Virus genome (UHGV): UHGV-0184459
Reading direction: 5' to 3' (one strand)
Source: a virus
DNA length: 24,949 nt
Under the pieces are notes generated by a model that saw nothing but the letters and a program-made list of their open reading frames with translations, was not told the origin of the DNA and made no database searches. The position numbers and the translations under genes are program-made. Below are positions 1 through 24,258 of the stretch, piece by piece. Each line of letters begins with the position of its first letter. Within the stretch, counting starts at the first letter, position 1.

Positions 1-1103
1 GGTATCTGATTTTCCCCTGTTCCCACATTCCGTTTTGCCGCTTCTCCCAAACCAAGGTATGTGAGAAGACCAGCTACATCCTTTCCACTCAAATTGGTAA
101 GCGTATTGTCCAGCGGTTGTTTACCTGCCAGTGCATTAAGCATTGTCGTGGCAAAGTTCGGGTCATTCCCCAGCGCCGCCGCCAGTTCATTCAGTGTATC
201 CAGTGCCGCAGGTGCAGAACCCACCATTGCCGCAATCGCCGATTTCACAAAAGCCGTAGTGGCAATCTGTGTATTGTTAACCGACTGTGCGGCAGTGGGG
301 GCTGTTGGCGTTCCGGTGAGTGCCGGACTTGACAGCGGTGCTTTGAGTGCCAGCGCATTGTTAATGGTGGTACTGAATTTCGGGTCATTATTAATGGCAG
401 CGGCAATTTCTTTCAGCGTATCCAGTGTGGCTGGCGCACCATTAATAAGGGCCATCAGTGCCGCCTGAACAAACGCGGTGGTCGCAATCTGCGTGGTGTT
501 ATTCCCCTCCGCTGGCGTTGGCGCTTTGGGTGTTCCGGTCAATGTCGGGCTTTCTTTGGGTGCATACTGTGAATGCGGGTCCGGTGCGGCAAGATGTTTT
601 GCCATCTTATCATCCACGAACACCTTCAGCTCCAGTACCTTGTCATCCACATACTTGCGGGTTGCCAGCACGACGGCAGGGTCGATTTTCAGGGTGATAT
701 TGTCCGTGCTGCTGGTAATCAACACCATGCGCACGGTCTGGGTGCGCCCGCTGCCTTCAGCCAGTTGCGGCTTATAGCTTTCCGGGCAGTTGCCTACGGC
801 AATCAATGCCCCGGACTCATCAAACAGACCCACTTCACGTATCCACCAACCACCCTCATTTTCAGGGATCACCTGTTCAGCAATAATCTGGCTGCTGTTC
901 TGCGGGTCGATATAGAGCATATTCAGCGCAGCCCGGCGTTTCTCATTTACCAGTGCCGTCTGCTTTGCGTCCGGCGTCGGCAATGCTCCGCCGCCATCGC
1001 CCACCGCCATATGGGTAATTTTTAGCGGCACACCGAGCGCGGCGGCGCTGGCAAGTTTCGCCGCTCCAATATCCGTCAGCAGGGTATAAAATTTTGTGCT
1101 CAT
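1..1103 (-). CDS. H: Tail fiber protein gpH, N-terminal part (C-terminus lies beyond window start)
   Basis: Manual minus-strand translation from ATG at 1103 gives MSTKFYTLLTDIGAAKLASAA...GDGGG...AESYKP...LAEGSGR with no stop to position 1; strongly resembles P2 gpH as recalled. Contains an internal ~70-aa duplication (NNTQIATTAFV...LDTL.E.AAA..NDP.F). Plus-strand ORFs here are antisense artefacts. Confidence 0.85.
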   Translation of the reverse strand, partial: MSTKFYTLLTDIGAAKLASAAALGVPLKITHMAVGDGGGALPTPDAKQTALVNEKRRAALNMLYIDPQNSSQIIAEQVIPENEGGWWIREVGLFDESGALIAVGNCPESYKPQLAEGSGRTQTVRMVLITSSTDNITLKIDPAVVLATRKYVDDKVLELKVFVDDKMAKHLAAPDPHSQYAPKESPTLTGTPKAPTPAEGNNTTQIATTAFVQAALMALINGAPATLDTLKEIAAAINNDPKFSTTINNALALKAPLSSPALTGTPTAPTAAQSVNNTQIATTAFVKSAIAAMVGSAPAALDTLNELAAALGNDPNFATTMLNALAGKQPLDNTLTNLSGKDVAGLLTYLGLGEAAKRNVGTGENQI

Positions 1104-12433: not shown

Positions 12434-12453
12434 AAAACGCTCCTAAGAGCGTT
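12434..12453. terminator. Short hairpin (AAACGCTC-loop-GAGCGTTT) between convergent Q and the Toprim-like gene; possible bidirectional terminator
   Basis: 8-bp inverted repeat read directly; flanked by T-rich tracts on both strands; overlaps the stop codon of the 12443..13162 gene. Confidence 0.35.
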
Positions 12454-13162
12454 TCTGTTTACGGTTTGACTCTATTTGTTTTTTTAGCTGGATAAGCCTT
12501 TCAACTAACTCAAACACTTTTGTACTTGGATTATCAGTATCGCTAGCTTCAGCAGCCTGTAAACTTCTCTTAGCCCTAAGGACTACTTCATTTAAATCTT
12601 TTGACTCTAAAGCGTTTAGGGTTTTCTGAAAAATCCCTTTTGAGCCTTTCTCATAGTCCTTAATATATTTTCTTAACTCATTTACAATTTGATTTCCTGA
12701 ACTATTACCAGGTAAATTTCTAAATGCCTTTGTCGAATAGGTATAATGTAGAAGTAACCAATATTCAAAACAAGGTACTGAATTCACAGTAAACCAAGTT
12801 GAGCTTGGTTTACTTCTCCTGATAGCGTCAAGCGCTGCCATGTAATCAGAGTGGGCATCCTTATCAATCACTACAAAGATTTGATCATAAGGAGCCCCCT
12901 GTTCAGTCATTTTTTTATGCTGTTCTTTTGCATGACGAACAACACACATAGGACTAGAGCCACATTCTCCAGTTACATCAATTACACTTGCTGTAAGTAA
13001 TTCAAAATGATTTATCAAATCCTCAAAGTAATTTGGTTCAGTTTTTTTACCCTCACAAACAATTAATATTTTAGCGAGAGGGGATTTTATTGCATTACGT
13101 CTTGCTAGATCCTTAGCCGTTTTAGGGGCACGTTTCTTTTTGAATAAATCCTCGCTTCCCAT
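12443..13162 (-). CDS. Toprim-like (RloB/AbiLii-like) protein, candidate nuclease partner of the upstream ATPase
   Basis: 239 aa; N-terminal ILIVCEGKKTEPNYF (conserved Glu) and downstream IFVVIDKDAHSD (DxD) fit a Toprim/RloB pattern; C-terminal NPST motif; ATG 1 nt after the ATPase stop; AT-rich codon usage unlike the phage backbone. Confidence 0.6.
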   Translation of the reverse strand: MGSEDLFKKKRAPKTAKDLARRNAIKSPLAKILIVCEGKKTEPNYFEDLINHFELLTASVIDVTGECGSSPMCVVRHAKEQHKKMTEQGAPYDQIFVVIDKDAHSDYMAALDAIRRSKPSSTWFTVNSVPCFEYWLLLHYTYSTKAFRNLPGNSSGNQIVNELRKYIKDYEKGSKGIFQKTLNALESKDLNEVVLRAKRSLQAAEASDTDNPSTKVFELVERLIQLKKQIESNRKQKRS

Positions 13163-13163
13163 A

Positions 13164-14429
13164 TCAAATCCCCGTCAATTTCTTGATGAACGGCAATGCT
13201 CCATACCGACCGTCTAGGTATGCGGCTTCTAAATTTTCTCTTCCTTTCCTTGGACTAAAATCAGTCAATGGATATAGATTAGTTTCACTGAGTTCATTTT
13301 TCTCACAAAACCAAACTTGATCACGTCTAAAAATGCTTTGATTCAGAATGGATGTTTCATGTGTTGAGAAAATTAACTGCGCACCTTTTTTATTAGTAAC
13401 CGGACTATTAAAAAGATTTACCAAGAAACTAACCAACTTTGGATGCAATGTATCGTGAAGCTCGTCGATTAATAGTACATATCCATTATCGAGCGCATCT
13501 AACCATGGACCAGCTAAAGAAAAAAGCTTTTGAGTGCCATGAGATTCCTCTTCAAGAGAAAAACTTACCGGCTCACCTTTATCGTTATAATGGACAGTAG
13601 TAACATCAAAAACTTCTTTATCCTTCATATTAGAAATAACGATTTTTTTGATATCATCTGGCATATCAGATGGCAAATCATCTGGATTAAATTTTTCTCT
13701 CTTAACTAAAACATCATCAATGCCAATATCTGCAGCTTGCAAAAAATTCAAGATATCTTTCTTCATATCCTCGGTGCAGCGTTTAGCGGAGAATGTATTA
13801 GCCCATCCATTAATTCCAGAAAGTCTCAGTGTTTTTTTAAACCAAGTAAAAACAGGCTTAAGCTGCTCGCTATTTAATTGAACAGCTGTAGACAAGAACA
13901 GGGCATTATTTCTAGTTGAACGCTGCCAAACTTGTTTTTCACCAAGTAGTGATGCGCCAAAATCCCAATCATATTCCTGCTTCTCTTCATCCCAAGCTCT
14001 GAAATACCACTTTTGAGGCCTTCCTTTTGGGTACGCAAAGAGCCATTCATCAATAATTCTTTCATTTGTAGCAGAAAAACCAAATTGATACCGGGTGCCC
14101 TCTGCAATAAAAGTAACTTCAAATTCAGTAGGTTTTTTAATTGAATCTGAATCAAGCTTGAAGGGGAATACGGGAACCTCTTCACCAGCCTGAGAGTTAG
14201 ATGCAGAGTGGATAACTAAATCCATCATAGCCCTGACAGCCAGAAGTACATTCGACTTGCCCGCTGCATTCGCACCGTAAATAACAGCTGACTTTAGAAC
14301 ATTAAGGTTAACGTTTCCCTCTACTGTAAAGATATTCTCTTCTAACTCGTTACTTTTGTTAGCAATAAGTGAAAGTGTTTGTTTGTTTTTGATTGAGAGA
14401 TAGTTCTCAACATTGAATTCAATAAGCAT
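13164..14429 (-). CDS. AAA/ABC-type ATPase (AAA_15/AAA_21-like), candidate anti-phage defence ATPase
   Basis: 421 aa; Walker A GANAAGKSN, Walker B/D-loop LLIDELHDTLHP, H-loop-like FSTHETSIL; strong AGGAGG Shine-Dalgarno; AT-rich. Confidence 0.75.
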   Translation of the reverse strand: MLIEFNVENYLSIKNKQTLSLIANKSNELEENIFTVEGNVNLNVLKSAVIYGANAAGKSNVLLAVRAMMDLVIHSASNSQAGEEVPVFPFKLDSDSIKKPTEFEVTFIAEGTRYQFGFSATNERIIDEWLFAYPKGRPQKWYFRAWDEEKQEYDWDFGASLLGEKQVWQRSTRNNALFLSTAVQLNSEQLKPVFTWFKKTLRLSGINGWANTFSAKRCTEDMKKDILNFLQAADIGIDDVLVKREKFNPDDLPSDMPDDIKKIVISNMKDKEVFDVTTVHYNDKGEPVSFSLEEESHGTQKLFSLAGPWLDALDNGYVLLIDELHDTLHPKLVSFLVNLFNSPVTNKKGAQLIFSTHETSILNQSIFRRDQVWFCEKNELSETNLYPLTDFSPRKGRENLEAAYLDGRYGALPFIKKLTGI

Positions 14430-14607
14430 TTTTACCCTCCTGGTGGTTGAATAATCTTAGTTGCAAAAGCAACAAACGTCACCAACAACCAAATCTTAAG
14501 GCATTTTATGACAAAAAACGTCAAAATGGTACTCATAAAATGAATTTAAACCAGTTTATTAGACTTAACATCTAATATTTACGGCTAGCTTTCGCCCTGA
14601 ACGCGCG

Positions 14608-14626
14608 CTCGTATCCCCGCCACGCC
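14608..14626. other. Candidate cos cohesive-end site (reverse orientation), GGCGTGGCGGGGATACGAG
   Basis: Reverse complement of 14608..14626 matches the first 13 nt of the 186/P2 19-nt cohesive end as I recall it (GGCGTGGCGGGGAAAGCAT / GGCGAGGCGGGGAAAGCAC), then diverges; lies between the packaging genes and the tum/A region as expected. Confidence 0.35.
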
Positions 14627-14829
14627 TGCCCGCTTTATGTAGTGGTTTTCATGCACCTGCATGATCTACGCAAAAGCCCGCCAGTTCTGGCAGGCCTTAG
14701 CAAAAACGATCCTCAAACGATCATGCGATCTCATGCGGCATAGACATGCACCACAGAGCTAACGCCTCGCACAGCTCGTTGTTCAACCTTGCTGACGCCA
14801 GAAGCAAGTTCAGACGCCAGCAACGTTTC

Positions 14830-15063
14830 TTAATGCAGCCAGCTGTCGTCTTCCCACACCTTCTGCATAATTTTCATCACTTGTTTTCTTTCTTCGTCCA
14901 GTTGCAGTCCGGTCAGTTCCACACCGTTAGAGCTACCTTTGCGGATACGAATTACCGTTTTGGGATACAGGGGGCGCAGATTGCGGTAAAGCTCGGATTC
15001 AAGGGCGTCCAGTGTAGACTGGCTAACCTTCTGCTCTTTATCGATCATTATTTCAATGCGCAT
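14830..15063 (-). CDS. DinI-family protein (Tum C-terminal-like, SOS-inducible antirepressor module)
   Basis: 77 aa from ATG 15063 with GAGGTG Shine-Dalgarno; MRIEIMIDK...LDALESELYRNLRPLYP...LTGLQLDEERKQVMKIMQKVWEDDSW parallels E. coli DinI as recalled. Confidence 0.75.
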   Translation of the reverse strand: MRIEIMIDKEQKVSQSTLDALESELYRNLRPLYPKTVIRIRKGSSNGVELTGLQLDEERKQVMKIMQKVWEDDSWLH

Positions 15064-15073
15064 AAAAGTCACC

Positions 15074-15262
15074 TCAGCTGATGACATCCATTGAGCGGTT
15101 GTATTCGTGGGTTCTGATTTTTGCCATGAGTTCATCTGTCAGTTCAGAAACCCACTGCAGGGCCAGCCCCTTCTCTTCATCACTACACTCACTAGCCGCT
15201 ACAAGCTTAAGAAAAAAATCAATGCGCTGGAGCTTCAAAGACTCCAAAAAATAGTCCTGCAT
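15074..15262 (-). CDS. Small protein upstream of and translationally coupled to the DinI-like gene (possible Tum N-terminal-equivalent)
   Basis: 62-aa ORF, ATG 15262 with AGGAGG Shine-Dalgarno; its stop TGA overlaps the Shine-Dalgarno of the DinI-like gene; LexA box about 45 nt upstream. Confidence 0.45.
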   Translation of the reverse strand: MQDYFLESLKLQRIDFFLKLVAASECSDEEKGLALQWVSELTDELMAKIRTHEYNRSMDVIS

Positions 15263-15304
15263 CTTTCCTCCTATGACACCAAAGCAATACTGTATACATA
15301 ACCA

Positions 15305-15320
15305 CTGTTTATATTTACAG
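15305..15320 (-). promoter_or_regulatory. LexA (SOS) box CTGT-N8-ACAG upstream of the tum-like operon
   Basis: CTGTTTATATTTACAG (minus sense tACTGTAAATATAAACAGtg) matches the LexA consensus CTGT-N8-ACAG with AT-rich spacer; a second half-site TACTGTATACATA at 15288..15300. Confidence 0.6.
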
Positions 15321-15414
15321 TATATAATAATCTTACTGATGTAAAACGTTTTTTTATGCTCATCAGCCTGATATGCCTGGTATTATTAAGAGCACGAATT
15401 GTTAACCCGCGTAA

Positions 15415-17829
15415 TTAATACAGGTTTCGCCACTTATCATCTTCCTGCAAACGCTGGTTCCGATAGAAGATACGCAGGCCTGCTCCTGACGGAATACTGC
15501 CGCCGCGAAGCAGTAAATCGACCTCTTTCTCGCTGCCATCAAATCCCCTGGACTTCAGTTCATACACGAGCTGCTGTCGCTGATGATCTGTAATTCGCTG
15601 TTTGTAGTCTTTACGCCGTTTCGGTTTCACAAGGCGTAACCTTGCTGCCAGTTCCCGGCGCTCTTTTTTGCTCATACTGTGCAGGTAATCGTGCAACTCC
15701 TTGTCATCCATGCGGGTGATATCCGTTCTGGTATCTCCATCAGCTGATTTGTCTTTCCCTTGTTGGTACAAATTTTCAGCAAGGGGACAGTTATTGCCAC
15801 GAGTCCAAGGGGCGCAAGCGCCCTGGTCGGCTGCCGCCTCCTGAACGTCAACGGCTTTACGAACCATTTTCCACTTCACTGCATGAGTGCAGATCTTGCC
15901 CTCTGCAATGGGTGACCAGATGCCATAAATACGAATGCCGTGATCGCCATAGGCGGTCGGCTCTTCGTTGATTTCATAAGCGGTTCTGATGAGGTGATAT
16001 TTACGGGGAACCAGTACGCCGCCCTGCTTCATGATGTAGGTGGCAAAACAACCAGCATCAGCAGCAGCCAGAATGGCATCAAGACGCGGGTTATCCAGTA
16101 CCGGCGCACCTGCTTTTTTGTCACCCTGTTGCCTTGCCGCCTGACCAGCCAGCAAGCGAAGTTCACGGTAAGCCTGACGCCCCGGAATACCAAAGAAGCG
16201 GAATTGCTGAACACGATGCAGAGACGCCCAGGCATTCACGTATTCAGCGTTATCACGCAGAGATTTACCCGTTTCCTTGCTGATCTCGCCAGCCAGACCA
16301 CGACCGTCAATGTTCTTACTGATATATTTCGCGATGTAGCTTGTCGGCGTTCCTTTGCGCGGGTTAATCAACTCAGACTTAAAGCGCGGCCCAGTGTTAT
16401 TGCCCAGCTCCTCGCGGTCTTCACGGATGGCAAACTTACGCAGTAATGCAGTGATGGCACGGCGGTCTTTTTTGCGCATGAAACACAACAGGTGCCAGTG
16501 AACTGTGCCATCATGATGCGGCTCAGCCACCCGCACGCCATACCAGCGCAACCCGGCTTTGTGCATCGCCTTACGAAATGCAGCAAACATGCCGACCAGA
16601 TAATCGCTGCTTTGTCTTACCGTCGCGTTTGTCCAGGTCGGGTTTGGTCTGCCGTTATTTAGCGTGGAATGGAAACGCGACGGACAGGTGATAGTGTAGA
16701 AAACGGCGCAGTCACCGCGCATTTCCGCGATAAGCTCCAGACCTTTAACACAGGCCATCATCTCATTGCGGCGATGCGCAGGGTTGCTGCTGCTGGCGTT
16801 TACCACATCCTCCATGTCCAGCGTGTCGCCGTCTTCGTTCACCAGTTCATGAGAACGGAAAAACTCCAGCGACTTACGGCGCTGCTCACGTTTATGCATC
16901 ACGGCTTCATAGCTGACATAAGGAGATGCTTTTTTGCTGACCAGGCAAACAGCGCGCAACTGCTCTTCCCGCCATTCGCAACGCATCTTCCATAATTTCC
17001 GATACCACCAGTCGGCGCACAACATACGCGCCAGCGAACCCGGAATGAGTTCATAGGGCACGGGTTTACGGCGGTTTCTTTTCCGACGGAGTTGCTCAAA
17101 CGCAGGTGGGATGACATCCAGACGCAGGGTTTCCGCTGCCACCTTTTCCCATGTCTTGCGGATTTCTTCTGGCTTAACGTCATCGGTGGCATACAAATCA
17201 CCACAAGCTGCATCAAGGCACATACTCATATGCGCAGCTACCAGGGTGGACAGGCGTTTCACCTGATCCTGACTCATTTCAGGCAGGATCAGCAGGCCGT
17301 CCAGCCCTTCATGGCTTGCCATAAAGCGAAAAGATGCAGATAGCTGACTGTCGCGTACATGCTCCAGTCGTTCCAGACATGGCTTAATCGTCTCACGTAA
17401 ATAGCGGGAATAAGCCTTTGGCCTGCCCAGGCTGCTGAAGTATTCAATACGTTGCATCAGCGGCTTGCTGATATGGGAAGGCTGGGCGTTGACGTCCGCC
17501 AGAATGACCATGTCTGAATTAAAACGCTGCTGCTCATGCGCCAGCTTTGCCCGGCTAATGAGCTTATCCTGCTCCATTTCGCGCTGGACAGGATCACGTG
17601 ATTCATTAAAGAAATAACGCTCCCAGACCTGATCACTCAGTGCCTCGCGGCGCAACTGTTCCTGCTCGTTATCGGCAGCGTACAGAGTGATCAGGTTTGA
17701 AAGCGTAGAAACCGGCGCAACTTCCGCCGGGTCCAGATAAGGGTTAATGGCCTTTTTCGGGCTGTTCCATGAGAATGCTGCGGCAGCCTCGTTAAAGCCG
17801 CAGCAGTTGTTCATATCGGCATGACTCAT
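15415..17829 (-). CDS. A: Rolling-circle replication initiation protein gpA
   Basis: 804 aa; HUH motif ([10 protein letters not shown]) and tyrosine motif ([10 protein letters not shown]); size and position as P2/186 A. Confidence 0.9.
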
Positions 17830-20829: not shown

Positions 20830-21426
20830 ATGTCAACATCAAAGTACCCAAGTGAGATCAAAATAAATCCCAATAAAGGTGGTAAGGCTGCGATTGAGCG
20901 ATTAGTCGAAGCCTATGGCTTTACGACACGACAGGCTTTAGCTGATCACTTGGAAGTATCAAAAAGCACACTAGCGAACAGGTATTTGCGGGATACATTT
21001 CCTGCTGACTGGATAATCCAATGTGCTCTTGAAACAGGAACCTCCCTCAAATGGTTAACTACCGGACAAGGCCTTAAGCAAAGCTCGCTGACAGCAGCTA
21101 CAGAAGAGCTTGTTAAGTTTCGCCTTGCCGCAGGCAAAATGATTGAAGACGGTTCATATGTCTTCGATTCATCATTTCTTCCTGCAAACCTTTCATCACC
21201 AATTGTTGTTCAGGATGGACTCGTCACATACATTTGTGATCAAAAATTTTCTGAAGTACTTGATGGAAACTGGTTAATCAATATCGACGGAACCTATTCC
21301 ATTCGAAAAATCACAAGGCTTCCTAAAGGAATGATTAAAATTACAACAGCAGAGAATAGCTTTGAATGTGCATTTTCTGATATTGAAGTGGTTGCTTGTA
21401 TAAGAAGTACAATAGTCTCGAATTAA
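20830..21426 (+). CDS. cI: CI immunity repressor (phage 186 type)
   Basis: 198 aa; N-terminal HTH region (ERLVEAYGFTTRQALADHLEVSKSTLANRY) and C-terminal domain; divergent from apl/cII as in 186. Confidence 0.8.
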   Translation: MSTSKYPSEIKINPNKGGKAAIERLVEAYGFTTRQALADHLEVSKSTLANRYLRDTFPADWIIQCALETGTSLKWLTTGQGLKQSSLTAATEELVKFRLAAGKMIEDGSYVFDSSFLPANLSSPIVVQDGLVTYICDQKFSEVLDGNWLINIDGTYSIRKITRLPKGMIKITTAENSFECAFSDIEVVACIRSTIVSN

Positions 21427-21446: not shown

Positions 21447-23123
21447 ATGAATTCATTTGCCATCGTTATACTCTTATTAGCATTTCTCGCCCCTGTTCTA
21501 GCTGTAATATTATTTAAACAAAGTAAAAAACACAAAGCGGCTATAGATAACCTGACAGCTAACAACATAGCCCTTTCTAACCAACTGATTGAAAATCAAG
21601 AAAAACTAGCACAGACCGTACGAGAATTATCAGAGCTTGAAGGGCGAGCAGCACCATTGTGGCAATACGAAGAATTGCACAGCGCAGTAATGGATGCAGA
21701 GAATAAGATAAAAAATGCGGACTCAATAGCCAAGCAAAAAATAGATGAAGCCCAAATTAAGGCAGCTAAAACAGTAAACGAAGCAAATTATCAAGCTCAG
21801 ATGACAATAAGCAACGCTAATAGCGAAGCTATAGCAATCACCAAAGACGCTCGCGATGCACGCCTGAAAGCCAAAGAACGTCTTGATAATGCTAATAATA
21901 AAGCAAATGAGCTAATCTCAAATGCTAATGACAATGCAGTAAAAATTATTTCTGATGCAGAAGAAAGAGCAAAGGAGATTGCTGGTTCAGCATATGAAGC
22001 TAAAGAGTTTGCAGAAAAATATGAAGCAGTTGCAAAATCAATGAAAAATAAAATTGAAGGTTATGGTGATGAATGGATCATCCCTAACCGTAGTGTACTT
22101 GATGAGCTGGCAGAAAATTATGAATTTACAGATGCAGGCAAGGAATTACAAAAAGCCAGAGAGTTAACCAAATCATTAATAAAAACTAATAAAGCTGCTT
22201 CGTGTGATTATGTTGAGCAAAAGAGGCGTAATACTGCCATAAACTTTGTTTTGGATGCCTTCAATGGAAGAGTTGACAGTATTTTATCAAAAGTCAAACA
22301 CAACAATTTTGGAAAACTTTCCCAAGAAATAAAAGATGCATTTCAACTAGTAAATTACAATGGCTCTGCCTTTAGGTCCGCAAAAATAAGTGACATCTAT
22401 CTTCAGGCAAGACTCAACGAGCTAAAATGGGGTGTAGCAGTTAATGAAATTATGCTCGAAGAAAAAGAAGAGCAAAGAAGGATTAAAGAACAGCTTCGTG
22501 AAGAGGAAAGAGCTCGTAGAGAATATGAAAAAGCGATAAAAGAAGCTGAAAAAGAAGAAAAAGCTATTCAGCAAGCTATAAATAAAGCAACGAAAGAACT
22601 TATGCTTGCAAATGAAGAACAACGCTTAGCTTTAGAGCAAAAAATAGCTGAACTACAGTTAAAATATGAAGAAGCTGAAGCTAAAAATCAACGAGCTATT
22701 TCTATGGCTCAACAAACCAGATCAGGCCACGTCTATATCATTAGTAATATTGGTTCATTTGGCGAAGATGTATATAAAATTGGAATGACACGCCGCCTTG
22801 AACCACTTGATCGTGTTCGTGAACTCGGAGATGCTAGTGTTCCTTTTTCGTTCGATGTTCATGCGATGATTTATAGTGATGATGCACCATCATTAGAAAA
22901 CCATCTGCATAAAGTTTTCAACGAAAAGCAGGTCAATAAAATTAACTCACGAAAAGAGTTTTTTAACGTAAATTTAAAAGAAATTAAATCAGTTATTGAA
23001 GACATGAACATCAACGCCCACTGGACAATGTTTGCAGAGGCGAAAGAATATAGAGAGTCTCTAGCTATTGAGCAGGAGCGCAAAGCAGCCACTTCCGCCA
23101 ACGATGAACTACATGTTGCTTAG
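21447..23123 (+). CDS. Membrane-anchored coiled-coil protein with DUF4041-like and C-terminal T5orf172 (GIY-YIG-like) domains; cargo gene
   Basis: 558 aa; N-terminal TM helix (FAIVILLLAFLAPVLAVILF), long Lys/Glu/Ala-rich coiled coil, C-terminal GHVYIISNIGSFGEDVYKIGMTRRLEPLDRVRELGDASVPFSFDVHAMIY...LENHLHKVF matching the T5orf172 pattern; strongly AT-rich. Confidence 0.7.
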   Translation: MNSFAIVILLLAFLAPVLAVILFKQSKKHKAAIDNLTANNIALSNQLIENQEKLAQTVRELSELEGRAAPLWQYEELHSAVMDAENKIKNADSIAKQKIDEAQIKAAKTVNEANYQAQMTISNANSEAIAITKDARDARLKAKERLDNANNKANELISNANDNAVKIISDAEERAKEIAGSAYEAKEFAEKYEAVAKSMKNKIEGYGDEWIIPNRSVLDELAENYEFTDAGKELQKARELTKSLIKTNKAASCDYVEQKRRNTAINFVLDAFNGRVDSILSKVKHNNFGKLSQEIKDAFQLVNYNGSAFRSAKISDIYLQARLNELKWGVAVNEIMLEEKEEQRRIKEQLREEERARREYEKAIKEAEKEEKAIQQAINKATKELMLANEEQRLALEQKIAELQLKYEEAEAKNQRAISMAQQTRSGHVYIISNIGSFGEDVYKIGMTRRLEPLDRVRELGDASVPFSFDVHAMIYSDDAPSLENHLHKVFNEKQVNKINSRKEFFNVNLKEIKSVIEDMNINAHWTMFAEAKEYRESLAIEQERKAATSANDELHVA

Positions 23124-23205: not shown

Positions 23206-24258
23206 ATGGCAGTACGAAAACTAACCACAGGGAAATGGCTTTGCGAATGTTACCCCGCCGGACGAAGTGGGCGTCGTGTGCGTAAACAATTCGCTACCAA
23301 AGGCGAAGCACTGGCTTTTGAGCGCCACACGATGGAAGAAACCGAAGCAAAGCCCTGGCTGGGTGAATCAGTGGATCGTCGAACACTGAAAGACGTGGTT
23401 GAGCTATGGTTCAAACTACATGGTAAATCTCTGACAGCTGGGCAGCATGTCTATGACAAATTGCTGTTGATGGTTGACGCTCTGGGCAATCCTCTTGCAA
23501 CCGATCTCACCTCTAAAATGTTTGCCCACTATCGAGATAAACGCCTGACAGGCGAGATCTACTTCAGCGAGAAATGGAAGAAAGGAGCAAGCCCGGTCAC
23601 CATTAACCTGGAGCAAAGCTATCTAAGTAGTGTTTTTAGCGAACTATCCCGTCTGGGCGAATGGTCGTATCCGAACCCACTGGAGAACATGCGAAAATTC
23701 ACCATCGCAGAAAAAGAGATGGCATGGCTTACCCATGAGCAGATTGTTGAATTGCTGGCTGATTGCAAACGTCAGGACCCAATTCTGGCACTGGTAGTTA
23801 AGATATGCTTAAGCACAGGCGCACGCTGGCGTGAAGCCGTAAATCTTACCCGCTCACAGGTGACCAAATACCGAATTACCTTTGTCAGAACGAAGGGGAA
23901 GAAAAACAGAAGCATCCCTATCAGTAAAGAGCTTTACGAAGAGATCATGGCGCTTGATGGGTTCAATTTCTTCACAGACTGCTATTTTCAATTTTTATCC
24001 GTGATGGAAAAAACGTCTATCGTGCTCCCTCGCGGTCAACTCACACACGTTCTGCGCCATACGTTTGCGGCGCACTTCATGATGTCGGGTGGAAACATTC
24101 TGGCCTTACAAAAAATTCTCGGACACCACGATATAAAAATGACTATGCGTTACGCACATCTGGCACCGGATCATCTAGAAACGGCGCTCCGTTTCAATCC
24201 TCTGGCAACGCTGCCAAGTGGCGACAAAGTGGCGGCAGCGGTTGGCATTACCCCGTAA
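23206..24258 (+). CDS. int: Tyrosine integrase (P2/186 family)
   Basis: 350 aa; conserved catalytic regions GARWREA (Arg), HVLRHTFA (His/Arg), MRYAHL (Tyr); adjacent to att region. Confidence 0.9.
   Translation: MAVRKLTTGKWLCECYPAGRSGRRVRKQFATKGEALAFERHTMEETEAKPWLGESVDRRTLKDVVELWFKLHGKSLTAGQHVYDKLLLMVDALGNPLATDLTSKMFAHYRDKRLTGEIYFSEKWKKGASPVTINLEQSYLSSVFSELSRLGEWSYPNPLENMRKFTIAEKEMAWLTHEQIVELLADCKRQDPILALVVKICLSTGARWREAVNLTRSQVTKYRITFVRTKGKKNRSIPISKELYEEIMALDGFNFFTDCYFQFLSVMEKTSIVLPRGQLTHVLRHTFAAHFMMSGGNILALQKILGHHDIKMTMRYAHLAPDHLETALRFNPLATLPSGDKVAAAVGITP

What the first reader, a model, noticed from the sequence alone, without database searches (positions are those of the whole stretch)
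14830..15320. LexA-box-controlled two-ORF locus with a stand-alone DinI-like protein (tum-like SOS induction module)
Seen in sequence: a consensus-like LexA box (CTGT-N8-ACAG, AT-rich spacer) about 45 nt upstream of a 62-aa ORF whose stop codon overlaps the Shine-Dalgarno of a 77-aa protein clearly related to DinI. Established knowledge: phage 186 is SOS-inducible through the LexA-repressed tum gene near the right cos end, and Tum is reported to have a DinI-like C-terminal region. Inference: here the DinI-like module appears as a separate translationally coupled ORF in a different frame, so either the antirepressor is bipartite in this phage or a frameshift has split a tum-like gene.
Basis: partly seen in the sequence, partly recalled or inferred. 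Interest (0 to 1): 0.5.

Follow-up and report, generated by a model that had tools for sequence, protein, structure and literature searches.

The report
Split tum SOS prophage-induction operon
This is the ordinary, already described DNA-damage switch of Fels-2-type P2-like prophages: a LexA-repressed promoter drives a small antirepressor gene (tumA) and a separate DinI-like gene (tumB), which together are the split form of phage 186's single tum gene.

Summary
On the minus strand, downstream of replication gene A, a near-consensus LexA box (15303..15322) overlaps the -10 of a p95-like promoter. It is followed by a 62-aa ORF (15262..15074), a 10-nt gap and a 77-aa DinI-family ORF (15063..14830).

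The interpretation (a tum-like SOS induction module) is also correct, but the arrangement is not new.
- The two proteins are 98% and 99% identical to Fels-2 STM2728 and STM2726.1.
- The arrangement matches PSP3 tumA/tumB, annotated in GenBank. The published literature describes it as [quoted passage not shown].
- The 62-aa protein is 61/62 identical to E. coli HS ECHS_RS04495. That gene was deleted as "tum" in a 2025 study, and the deletion abolished mitomycin C induction.
- A profile of the 62-aa family matches 186 Tum residues 5-48 at 36 bits, against at most 8.6 bits in 3000 shuffles.
- The locus occurs in 1125 of 5426 complete E. coli genomes, so a sequencing frameshift is excluded.
- The frame offset between the two genes varies (0, 1 or 2) among relatives, so a programmed frameshift is excluded.

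One modest new lead: nearly invariant TumA is paired with divergent CI repressors that share only their N-terminal domain.

Verdict: already known; low interest.

The parts
15340..15345 (-). -35 hexamer TTTACA of the p95-like SOS promoter
   Evidence: Read from the sequence. A 17-nt spacer separates it from TACTGT. This is the same layout as the annotated 186 p95 promoter (TTCACA, 18 nt, TACTGT). It is invariant in the window, HS and Fels-2. The generic sigma-70 scan misses it because TACTGT matches only 3 of 6 positions of TATAAT.
15317..15322 (-). -10 hexamer TACTGT, which is also the left half of the LexA box
   Evidence: analogous to the annotated -10 of 186 p95.
15303..15322 (.). LexA operator (SOS box) TACTGTAAATATAAACAGTG
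   Evidence: Matches 17 of 20 consensus positions and is the only such site in the window; 0 of 100 shuffles gave one. A CTGT-N8-ACAG box sits about 25-45 nt upstream of the homologous gene in 186, PSP3, Fels-2, HS, 813R9, YenM_06.16-2 and ESSI2_ev015. It stays conserved where the flanks diverge. LexA binding itself is inferred.
15288..15305 (-). Conserved GTGG-N8-ACAGTA element just 3' of the LexA box. It could be a degenerate second LexA half-site or part of the transcription start region.
   Evidence: The TACAGT motif is invariant across 7 aligned relatives. Function unknown.
15074..15262 (-). tumA: 62-aa antirepressor gene, homologue of the N-terminal part of 186 Tum. Its AGGAGG Shine-Dalgarno is at 15267..15272.
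   Evidence: - 61/62 identical to Fels-2 STM2728 and to E. coli HS ECHS_RS04495. ECHS_RS04495 is the gene deleted as 'tum' in PMC12055606, with loss of MMC induction.
- The family HMM matches 186 Tum residues 5-48 at 36.2 bits, against at most 8.6 bits in 3000 shuffles.
- PHROG cross-matches link it to 186 Tum.
- The AF2 model is a helical hairpin with pLDDT 88.5.
15068..15085 (-). Junction hairpin GUCAUC-AGCUGA-GGUGAC. The tumA stop codon is in the loop and the tumB Shine-Dalgarno (15070..15075) is in the 3' arm. It may couple translation of the two genes.
   Evidence: Flagged. The stem is kept in Fels-2 and HS but absent in more distant relatives, so the evidence is weak.
14830..15063 (-). 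tumB: 77-aa DinI-like protein
   Evidence: - Pfam DinI, E=6.6e-23.
- 99% identical to Fels-2 STM2726.1, 77% to PSP3 TumB and 41% to the 186 Tum C-terminal part.
- phrog_189, 'RecA filament binding protein DinI'.
- Matches PDB 1GHH.
14787..14824 (-). Long hairpin directly after the tumB stop codon, with no U tract
   Evidence: RNA fold.
14671..14698 (-). Intrinsic-terminator-like hairpin GGCCUGCCAG-AA-CUGGCGGGC followed by UUUU. It is the likely end of the tumA-tumB transcript.
   Evidence: RNA fold of 14640..14835, z-score -3.9; coordinates. The scan tool missed it because the loop is short.
20830..21426 (+). cI: 186-type immunity repressor, the presumed target of TumA
   Evidence: Pfam Phage_CI_repr plus Phage_CI_C, with no S24 peptidase domain. 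It is 100% identical to the cI of phage 813R9 and homologous to 186 CI.

Best explanation
The locus is the SOS induction operon of a Fels-2-type P2-like (Peduoviridae) prophage, in the split tumA-tumB form.

Proposed mechanism:
1. In an undamaged lysogen, host LexA sits on the operator that overlaps the -10 of the promoter downstream of replication gene A and keeps the operon off.
2. DNA damage activates RecA, LexA cleaves itself, and one transcript carrying tumA and tumB is made. It probably ends at the terminator near 14671..14698.
3. TumA is a 62-aa helical hairpin homologous to the N-terminal part of phage 186 Tum. It binds the prophage's 186-type CI repressor, which has no self-cleavage domain, and stops it from binding DNA. 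The early lytic promoter then fires and the prophage is induced.
4. TumB is a DinI-like protein translated from its own Shine-Dalgarno and ATG, 10 nt after the tumA stop. It corresponds to the DinI-like C-terminal part of 186 Tum, which in 186 is also made separately from an internal start. It most likely modulates the RecA filament and the SOS signal rather than acting on CI.

Shown here: the sequence anatomy, the homologies and the conservation.
Shown elsewhere: the 98%-identical tumA is required for mitomycin C induction, and induction depends on LexA cleavage.
Inferred: LexA binding at this site, the TumA-CI contact and the role of TumB.
For: 1. Anatomy. TTTACA, 17 nt, then TACTGT overlapping a 17/20 LexA box that is unique in the window. 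This is the same layout as the annotated 186 p95 promoter and LexA site.
2. Near-identity to known loci. TumA is 61/62 and TumB 99% identical to Fels-2 STM2728 and STM2726.1. The promoter and operator are identical in Fels-2 and E. coli HS.
3. Annotation and literature. PSP3 carries tumA ('similar to 5' end 186 tum; UV induction of prophage') and tumB. Lemire et al. [quoted passage not shown]
4. Experiment on the orthologue. PMC12055606 deleted 'tum (locus tag ECHS_RS04495)' in the E. coli HS prophage DuoHS. The deletion mutant, like lexA(Ind-), no longer lysed or formed virions after MMC. ECHS_RS04495 is the 189-nt gene between gene A and the DinI-like gene, and its product is 61/62 identical to the window protein.
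5. Homology to 186 Tum. The family HMM scores 36.2 bits on Tum residues 5-48, against at most 8.6 bits in 3000 shuffles. 186 Tum matches phrog_698, the window protein's family, at E=2.4e-5. Both proteins also match phrog_8554 and phrog_1993.
6. Conserved LexA box. It is found upstream of every homologue fetched, including stand-alone tumA genes with no dinI partner.
7. The target is present. The window encodes a 186-type CI with HTH and CI_C domains and no peptidase domain.
8. TumB is a DinI-family protein.
9. It is a real gene pair, not an error. It occurs in 1125 of 5426 complete E. coli genomes, the TumA family has 484 protein clusters, and substitutions are mainly at third codon positions.
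Against: - Nothing was measured on this exact sequence.
- Pairwise BLASTP of TumA against 186 Tum finds nothing. PSP3 TumA is not significantly matched by the TumA family HMM (4.1 bits). The link to PSP3 runs only through 186 Tum and phrog_1993.
- The HS experiment shows that tumA is necessary, not that it is sufficient, and it does not show a CI contact. An in-frame tumA deletion could also lower tumB translation if the two genes are translationally coupled.
- The PSP3 antirepressor assignment is a personal communication quoted second-hand. The primary paper (Bunny et al. 2002) could not be read here.
- The consensus promoter scan reports no sigma-70 site in 14400..15500.
- The role of TumB is unproven. 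Deleting the dinI homologues of Gifsy prophages had no significant effect on induction.
Confidence: 0.9

Rival explanations
1. The two ORFs are one tum-like gene broken by a sequencing error or a recent frameshift mutation. On this view the locus is a pseudogene or an assembly artefact.
For: 186 has a single fused tum gene. In the window the DinI frame is open for 25 codons upstream of its ATG.
Against: - The same 62-aa ORF, short gap and 77-aa ORF occur in about 70 phage records and in 1125 complete E. coli genomes.
- The C-terminal tail of the 62-aa protein and its stop position are conserved down to about 73% identity.
- Both ORFs show purifying selection.
- tumB has its own Shine-Dalgarno and ATG.
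- The frame offset between the genes is 0, 1 or 2 in different relatives.
Confidence: 0.01
2. A programmed ribosomal frameshift or stop-codon readthrough fuses TumA to TumB, and the resulting 186-Tum-like fusion is the active antirepressor.
For: The DinI frame overlaps the 3' end of tumA without a stop codon for 25 codons in the window, Fels-2 and HS. The fused form exists naturally in 186.
Against: - The required shift would be +1 in the window, +2 in SopEPhi and ST437phi4.1, and 0 in MLG42 and PSP3.
- The open upstream stretch shrinks to 4-14 codons in relatives.
- No slippery heptamer is visible in the overlap (sequence reading).
- The junction hairpin is not conserved.
Confidence: 0.02
3. 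The antirepressor is truly bipartite: TumA and TumB must form a complex, reconstituting 186 Tum, to inactivate CI.
For: - In 186 the two modules are one polypeptide.
- The genes are adjacent, closely spaced and possibly translationally coupled.
- TumB is as conserved as TumA.
Against: - The PSP3 upstream gene alone is reported to carry the antirepressor activity.
- TumA homologues with a LexA box occur without any dinI partner in Yersinia phage YenM_06.16-2 and phage ESSI2_ev015.
- The Gifsy dinI homologues are dispensable for induction.
- In 186 the DinI-like part is annotated as a modulator only.
Confidence: 0.07

Closest known systems
Fels-2 STM2728 / STM2726.1, and E. coli HS prophage DuoHS tum (ECHS_RS04495) with its DinI-like gene (ECHS_RS04500)
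   Same: - Same position after gene A, identical promoter and LexA box, and the same 62-aa ORF, 10-nt gap and 77-aa ORF layout.
- The proteins are 98-99% identical.
- The HS gene is required for MMC induction.
   Different: - There are one or two amino-acid changes.
- The sequence downstream of the tumB stop differs, because different cargo is inserted.
- The CI repressor paired with it is only 44% (Fels-2) or 55% (HS) identical overall.
Phage PSP3 tumA / tumB
   Same: A split tum behind a LexA box and a p95-like promoter. tumA is annotated for UV induction and tumB as DinI-like. TumB is 77% identical.
   Different: - TumA is only about 14-22% identical, depending on the alignment, and belongs to another PHROG (1993 rather than 698).
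- In PSP3 the two genes are in the same frame, separated by a stop codon and 3 nt. In the window they are in different frames with a 10-nt gap.
Phage 186 tum (p95 SOS operon)
   Same: - A LexA-repressed promoter with the box over the -10, placed after gene A.
- An N-terminal antirepressor module homologous to TumA and a C-terminal DinI-like module homologous to TumB.
- The DinI-like part is also made on its own, from an internal GTG start.
   Different: - In 186 it is one fused 146-aa reading frame.
- orf97 follows in the 186 operon. In the window a terminator-like hairpin and an AbiL defence cassette follow instead.
Gifsy-1/-2/-3 dinI-gfoA/gftA LexA-controlled antirepressor operons (Lemire et al. 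2011)
   Same: A LexA box controls a two-gene operon with a small antirepressor and a DinI homologue. Induction works by antirepression, not repressor cleavage.
   Different: The gene order is reversed, with dinI first. These are lambdoid phages, and their antirepressors and repressors were not found to be related in sequence to TumA or CI (no cross-hits).
E. coli chromosomal DinI (PDB 1GHH)
   Same: Same Pfam family and length, with the acidic C-terminal W-E-x-D-x-W helix aligned.
   Different: TumB scores 42 bits against the NCBIfam DinI equivalog cut-off of 111. It is therefore a phage DinI-like paralogue, not dinI itself.

Membership tests
186 Tum-type LexA-controlled antirepressor (Tum N-terminal module / TumA) | Sequence homology to the N-terminal (non-DinI) part of 186 Tum | tested here: met
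   The family HMM scores 36.2 bits on Tum residues 5-48, against at most 8.6 bits in 3000 shuffles. 186 Tum matches phrog_698 at E=2.4e-5, and both proteins match phrog_8554 and phrog_1993. Pairwise BLASTP alone fails.
186 Tum-type LexA-controlled antirepressor (Tum N-terminal module / TumA) | LexA box overlapping the promoter immediately upstream | tested here: met
   A 17/20 consensus box at 15303..15322 overlaps the TACTGT -10 and is unique in the window. It is conserved in all homologous loci examined. Physical LexA binding was not tested.
186 Tum-type LexA-controlled antirepressor (Tum N-terminal module / TumA) | Encoded by a P2/186-like prophage, downstream of replication gene A, together with a 186-type non-cleavable CI repressor | tested here: met
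   gpA (Pfam Phage_GPA, E=1.4e-127) lies at 15415..17829. CI carries Phage_CI_repr plus Phage_CI_C and no peptidase domain. Gene order is syntenic with Fels-2 and 186.
186 Tum-type LexA-controlled antirepressor (Tum N-terminal module / TumA) | Required for SOS (UV or mitomycin C) induction of the prophage | not testable with these tools
   Shown for the 61/62-identical E. coli HS orthologue (PMC12055606), not for this sequence.
186 Tum-type LexA-controlled antirepressor (Tum N-terminal module / TumA) | Binds CI and reversibly prevents its operator binding | not testable with these tools
   Established for 186 Tum (Shearwin et al. 1998, as cited). Here it is only inferred.
Split tum operon (tumA-tumB of PSP3 / Fels-2) | Two separate adjacent ORFs, an N-terminal Tum module followed by a DinI-like module, in one LexA-controlled unit | tested here: met
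   No promoter-like site was found between or within the two ORFs, and the gap is 10 nt.
DinI family (Pfam PF06183) | Score above the Pfam gathering threshold across the whole domain | tested here: met
   81.3 bits against a cut-off of 24.2, covering profile positions 1-63 of 63.
DinI family (Pfam PF06183) | Orthologue of chromosomal dinI (NCBIfam equivalog NF007893) | tested here: not met
   42.4 bits against a cut-off of 111. It is a DinI-like paralogue.
DinI family (Pfam PF06183) | Binds RecA filaments and modulates co-protease activity | not testable with these tools
   Inferred from family membership only.

The most novel reading that the evidence does not exclude
TumA recognises the conserved N-terminal DNA-binding domain of CI. 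If so, one nearly invariant TumA allele could serve many different CI variants and could cross-induce co-resident Fels-2-type prophages that carry divergent CI repressors.

Supporting observations:
- Phages whose TumA is 98-100% identical carry CI proteins that are 65-76% identical in the N-terminal 81 residues but only 26-41% identical in the C-terminal domain.
- Over 78 pairs from 13 phages, TumA identity tracks CI N-terminal-domain identity (Spearman 0.76) far better than C-terminal-domain identity (0.26).

These pairs are not independent and shared ancestry is not controlled, so this is a lead, not a result.
Probability: 0.35. Interest if true: 0.4.

Novelty: already known. Interest (0 to 1): 0.12.

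Why it matters
The finding adds little to what is known about SOS induction. The split tum arrangement is annotated in PSP3, described in the literature for Fels-2 and PSP3, and was genetically tested in 2025 in an E. coli HS prophage whose gene differs by one residue.

Its practical value is for annotation. The 62-aa antirepressor has no Pfam or NCBIfam model, its PHROGs are labelled 'unknown function', and RefSeq calls it 'hypothetical protein' in more than a thousand complete E. coli genomes. Recognising it tells an annotator that such a prophage is SOS-inducible by antirepression.

The pairing of TumA with the CI N-terminal domain could guide experiments on cross-induction between co-resident P2-like prophages.

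Tried and rejected
- Pairwise BLASTP of the 62-aa ORF against 186 Tum gave nothing. Family profiles were needed to show the homology.
- Pfam, NCBIfam and PADLOC have no model for the 62-aa protein.
- A PDB sequence search found nothing for it. Foldseek of the AF2 model returned only generic helical hairpins with E>1, so nothing was concluded from the fold.
- The sigma-70 scan found no promoter. The promoter was instead assigned by analogy with the annotated 186 p95.
- The idea that the junction hairpin mediates translational coupling is only weakly supported, because the hairpin is confined to the window/Fels-2/HS subgroup.
- A programmed frameshift or readthrough fusion was rejected because the frame offset varies among relatives.
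- The second CTGT-N8-ACAG (13886..13901) was dismissed as chance: it lies inside a coding sequence and has a GC-containing spacer.
- Rfam and tRNA scans of the window found nothing.
- Bunny, Liu & Roth 2002, the primary source on the Fels-2 tum, is not held in the library. It is cited only through Lemire et al. 2011.
- The representative-library search found no TumA relative fused to a DinI domain among 66 hits. Whether the 186 fusion or the split form is ancestral remains open.

Full report
**What is in the sequence**

The finding lies on the minus strand of a P2-like prophage. Reading 5' to 3' on that strand, the elements are as follows.
- Replication gene A lies at 17829..15415 (Pfam Phage_GPA, E=1.4e-127).
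- A 150-nt intergenic region follows. It carries TTTACA (15345..15340), a 17-nt spacer and TACTGT (15322..15317).
- The 20-mer TACTGTAAATATAAACAGTG (15322..15303) begins at that -10 hexamer.
- Next come an AGGAGG Shine-Dalgarno and a 62-aa ORF (15262..15074).
- The TGA stop of that ORF overlaps GAGGTG, the Shine-Dalgarno of a 77-aa ORF (15063..14830).
- Two hairpins follow. The second (14698..14671) is GC-rich with a U tract, like an intrinsic terminator.

The 20-mer matches 17 of 20 positions of the LexA consensus. It is the only site in the window within three mismatches, and 0 of 100 shuffles gave any. The 77-aa protein is a clear DinI-family member (Pfam 81.3 bits against a cut-off of 24.2; 1GHH at E=3.9e-6). 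It is 40% identical to residues 71-145 of 186 Tum.

**What it corresponds to**

The 851-bp region is 94-97% identical to about 60 Peduoviridae records from Escherichia, Klebsiella and Salmonella. The promoter-to-tumB segment (516 bp) occurs in 1125 of 5426 complete E. coli genomes, once with 100% identity.

- **Fels-2.** The same layout is annotated as STM2728 (62 aa, 'hypothetical') and STM2726.1 ('DinI family protein... similar to TumB of PSP3'). It has the same 10-nt gap. The window proteins are 98% and 99% identical to these.
- **PSP3.** The equivalent genes are named tumA ('similar to 5' end 186 tum; UV induction of prophage') and tumB ('similar to dinI and 3' end of 186 tum').
- **186.** The record annotates the p95 promoter with its -10 (TACTGT) inside the LexA site, the 146-aa Tum ('inhibits CI DNA binding'), and shorter in-frame products. 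One of these is a GTG-initiated DinI-like product that 'modulates SOS induction'.

The window has the same promoter and operator architecture as 186.

**Literature**

Lemire et al. 2011 (PMC3121763) state that 186 Tum looks like an antirepressor fused to DinI. [quoted passage not shown] For this they cite Bunny et al. 2002 and a personal communication from G. Christie.

A 2025 study (PMC12055606) deleted 'tum (locus tag ECHS_RS04495)' in the E. coli HS prophage DuoHS. The deletion strain, like lexA(Ind-), did not lyse or assemble virions after mitomycin C. In the RefSeq record, ECHS_RS04495 is the 189-nt 'hypothetical protein' gene between the gene A endonuclease and the DinI-like gene. Its product is 61/62 identical to the window ORF, and the promoter and LexA box are identical.

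**Is the 62-aa ORF really related to Tum?**

- Pairwise BLASTP finds nothing, and MAFFT identities to 186 Tum-N and PSP3 TumA are only about 14-22%.
- The family is large: 484 clusters at 90% identity and 66 representatives at 50% identity, with members down to 36% identity.
- It shows a conserved motif, E..LQRI.L..RLVA...C...[DE]K.LA..W..EL.
- An HMM built from 29 family members scores 36.2 bits on 186 Tum residues 5-48. It scores 38.1 bits on the 'tum protein' of Yersinia phage YenM_06.16-2. The best of 3000 shuffled controls scores 8.6 bits.
- Independently, 186 Tum matches the window protein's PHROG (698) at E=2.4e-5. Both proteins match phrog_8554 and phrog_1993, and phrog_1993 is the family of PSP3 TumA.

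The homology therefore holds and the refutation condition is not met.

The AF2 model is a confident helical hairpin (helices 2-22 and 28-61, pLDDT 88.5). It has no informative structural neighbours.

**Error, frameshift or fusion?**

Both ORFs evolve as coding sequence. Against SopEPhi, tumA has 7/3/21 differences at codon positions 1/2/3, with 19 synonymous and 7 non-synonymous codon changes. tumB behaves similarly.

Among relatives the gap between the genes is 10-13 nt (3 nt in PSP3). The frame offset is 1 in the window, Fels-2, HS and ST13phi12.1. It is 2 in SopEPhi and ST437phi4.1, and 0 in MLG42 and PSP3. A sequencing error, a recent pseudogenising frameshift and a conserved programmed frameshift are all excluded, and the 'different frame' is incidental.

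TumA homologues behind a LexA box also occur without any dinI partner, in YenM_06.16-2 and ESSI2_ev015. None of the 66 representative relatives carries a DinI domain. This fits the published view that 186 Tum is a fusion of two separable modules.

A hairpin that puts the tumA stop codon in its loop and the tumB Shine-Dalgarno in its stem (15085..15068) could couple translation. It is confined to the closest relatives, so it carries little weight.

**Mechanism**

- *Shown:* the anatomy, the homology and the conservation of the LexA box across diverged loci. Also shown is a 186-type CI with an HTH domain and a CI_C domain but no peptidase domain, which cannot be inactivated by RecA-stimulated self-cleavage.
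- *Shown elsewhere:* tumA and cleavable LexA are needed for induction.
- *Inferred:* LexA occupies 15303..15322 and blocks the promoter. After DNA damage the tumA-tumB mRNA is made. TumA binds CI and stops operator binding, as 186 Tum does. TumB acts on RecA filaments to tune the SOS signal, as proposed for DinI and for the short 186 Tum products.

**A side observation that may be new**

TumA is 98-100% identical in more than 40 phage records. The CI proteins of those phages are only 43-55% identical to the window's CI.

Splitting CI at residue 81 of the window protein gives N-terminal domains that are 65-76% identical and C-terminal domains that are 26-41% identical. Across 13 phages (78 pairs), TumA identity correlates with CI N-terminal-domain identity (Spearman 0.76) much more than with C-terminal-domain identity (0.26). 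This suggests TumA contacts the DNA-binding domain and might act across divergent CI variants. The pairs are not independent and shared ancestry is not controlled, so it remains a lead.

**Verdict**

The feature is an already known and very common module, so interest is low. The main practical point is an annotation gap. The antirepressor has no Pfam or NCBIfam model, and genome records call it 'hypothetical protein'.

Noticed in passing
window 12443..14429 (- strand): The cargo directly downstream of tumB is a two-gene AbiL-type defence system. The 421-aa protein matches AbiLi (PADLOC E=1.1e-100; Pfam AAA_21). The 239-aa protein matches AbiLii (PADLOC E=1.6e-29; Pfam RloB). It sits in the variable region between the tum operon and the portal gene. 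Homology to Fels-2 and HS stops right after the tumB stop codon.
   Followed up: partly
window 21447..23123 (+ strand): A 558-aa PD-Lambda-1 defence protein is inserted between cI (20830..21426) and int (23206..24258) (PADLOC E=2e-120; Pfam DUF4041, T5orf172 and MUG113). In Fels-2, int follows cI directly.
   Followed up: partly
window 20830..21426 (cI) versus 15074..15262 (tumA); loci L004, L006, L010-L012, L020-L022: Nearly invariant TumA (98-100% identical) is paired with CI repressors that are conserved only in the N-terminal HTH domain (65-76%) and not in the C-terminal domain (26-41%). Across 13 phages, TumA identity tracks N-terminal-domain identity (Spearman 0.76) rather than C-terminal-domain identity (0.26).
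   Followed up: partly
window 15288..15305 (- strand): Directly 3' of the LexA box is a GTGG-N8-ACAGTA element whose TACAGT is invariant in seven aligned relatives. It could be a degenerate second LexA site or part of the transcription start region. 186 and PSP3 have no equivalent.
   Followed up: no
window 15074..15262; E. coli genomes: There is an annotation gap. The experimentally supported antirepressor has no Pfam, NCBIfam or PADLOC model. Its PHROGs (698, 8554, 1993) are labelled 'unknown function'. RefSeq lists it as 'hypothetical protein', and some sources call it 'levan regulatory protein'.
   Followed up: yes
L007:6904..7132 (Yersinia phage vB_YenM_06.16-2) and L008:2385..2638 (phage ESSI2_ev015): These phages carry stand-alone tumA homologues (60 and 70 aa) behind a perfect CTGT-N8-ACAG box, with no DinI-like gene next to them. 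The Tum N-terminal module therefore exists fused (186), split with dinI (PSP3, Fels-2 and this window) and alone.
   Followed up: partly
window 13886..13901: A second CTGT-N8-ACAG match (CTGTAGACAAGAACAG) lies inside the AbiLi coding sequence. Its spacer is GC-containing and it has no TA flanks, so it is probably chance.
   Followed up: no
L017 (Escherichia phage 500465-1, NC_049342) 249..881: This record has compensating single-base indels inside tumA, and a 1-nt deletion at the start of the dinI-like gene that changes the annotated ORFs. They may be sequencing errors in that record.
   Followed up: no
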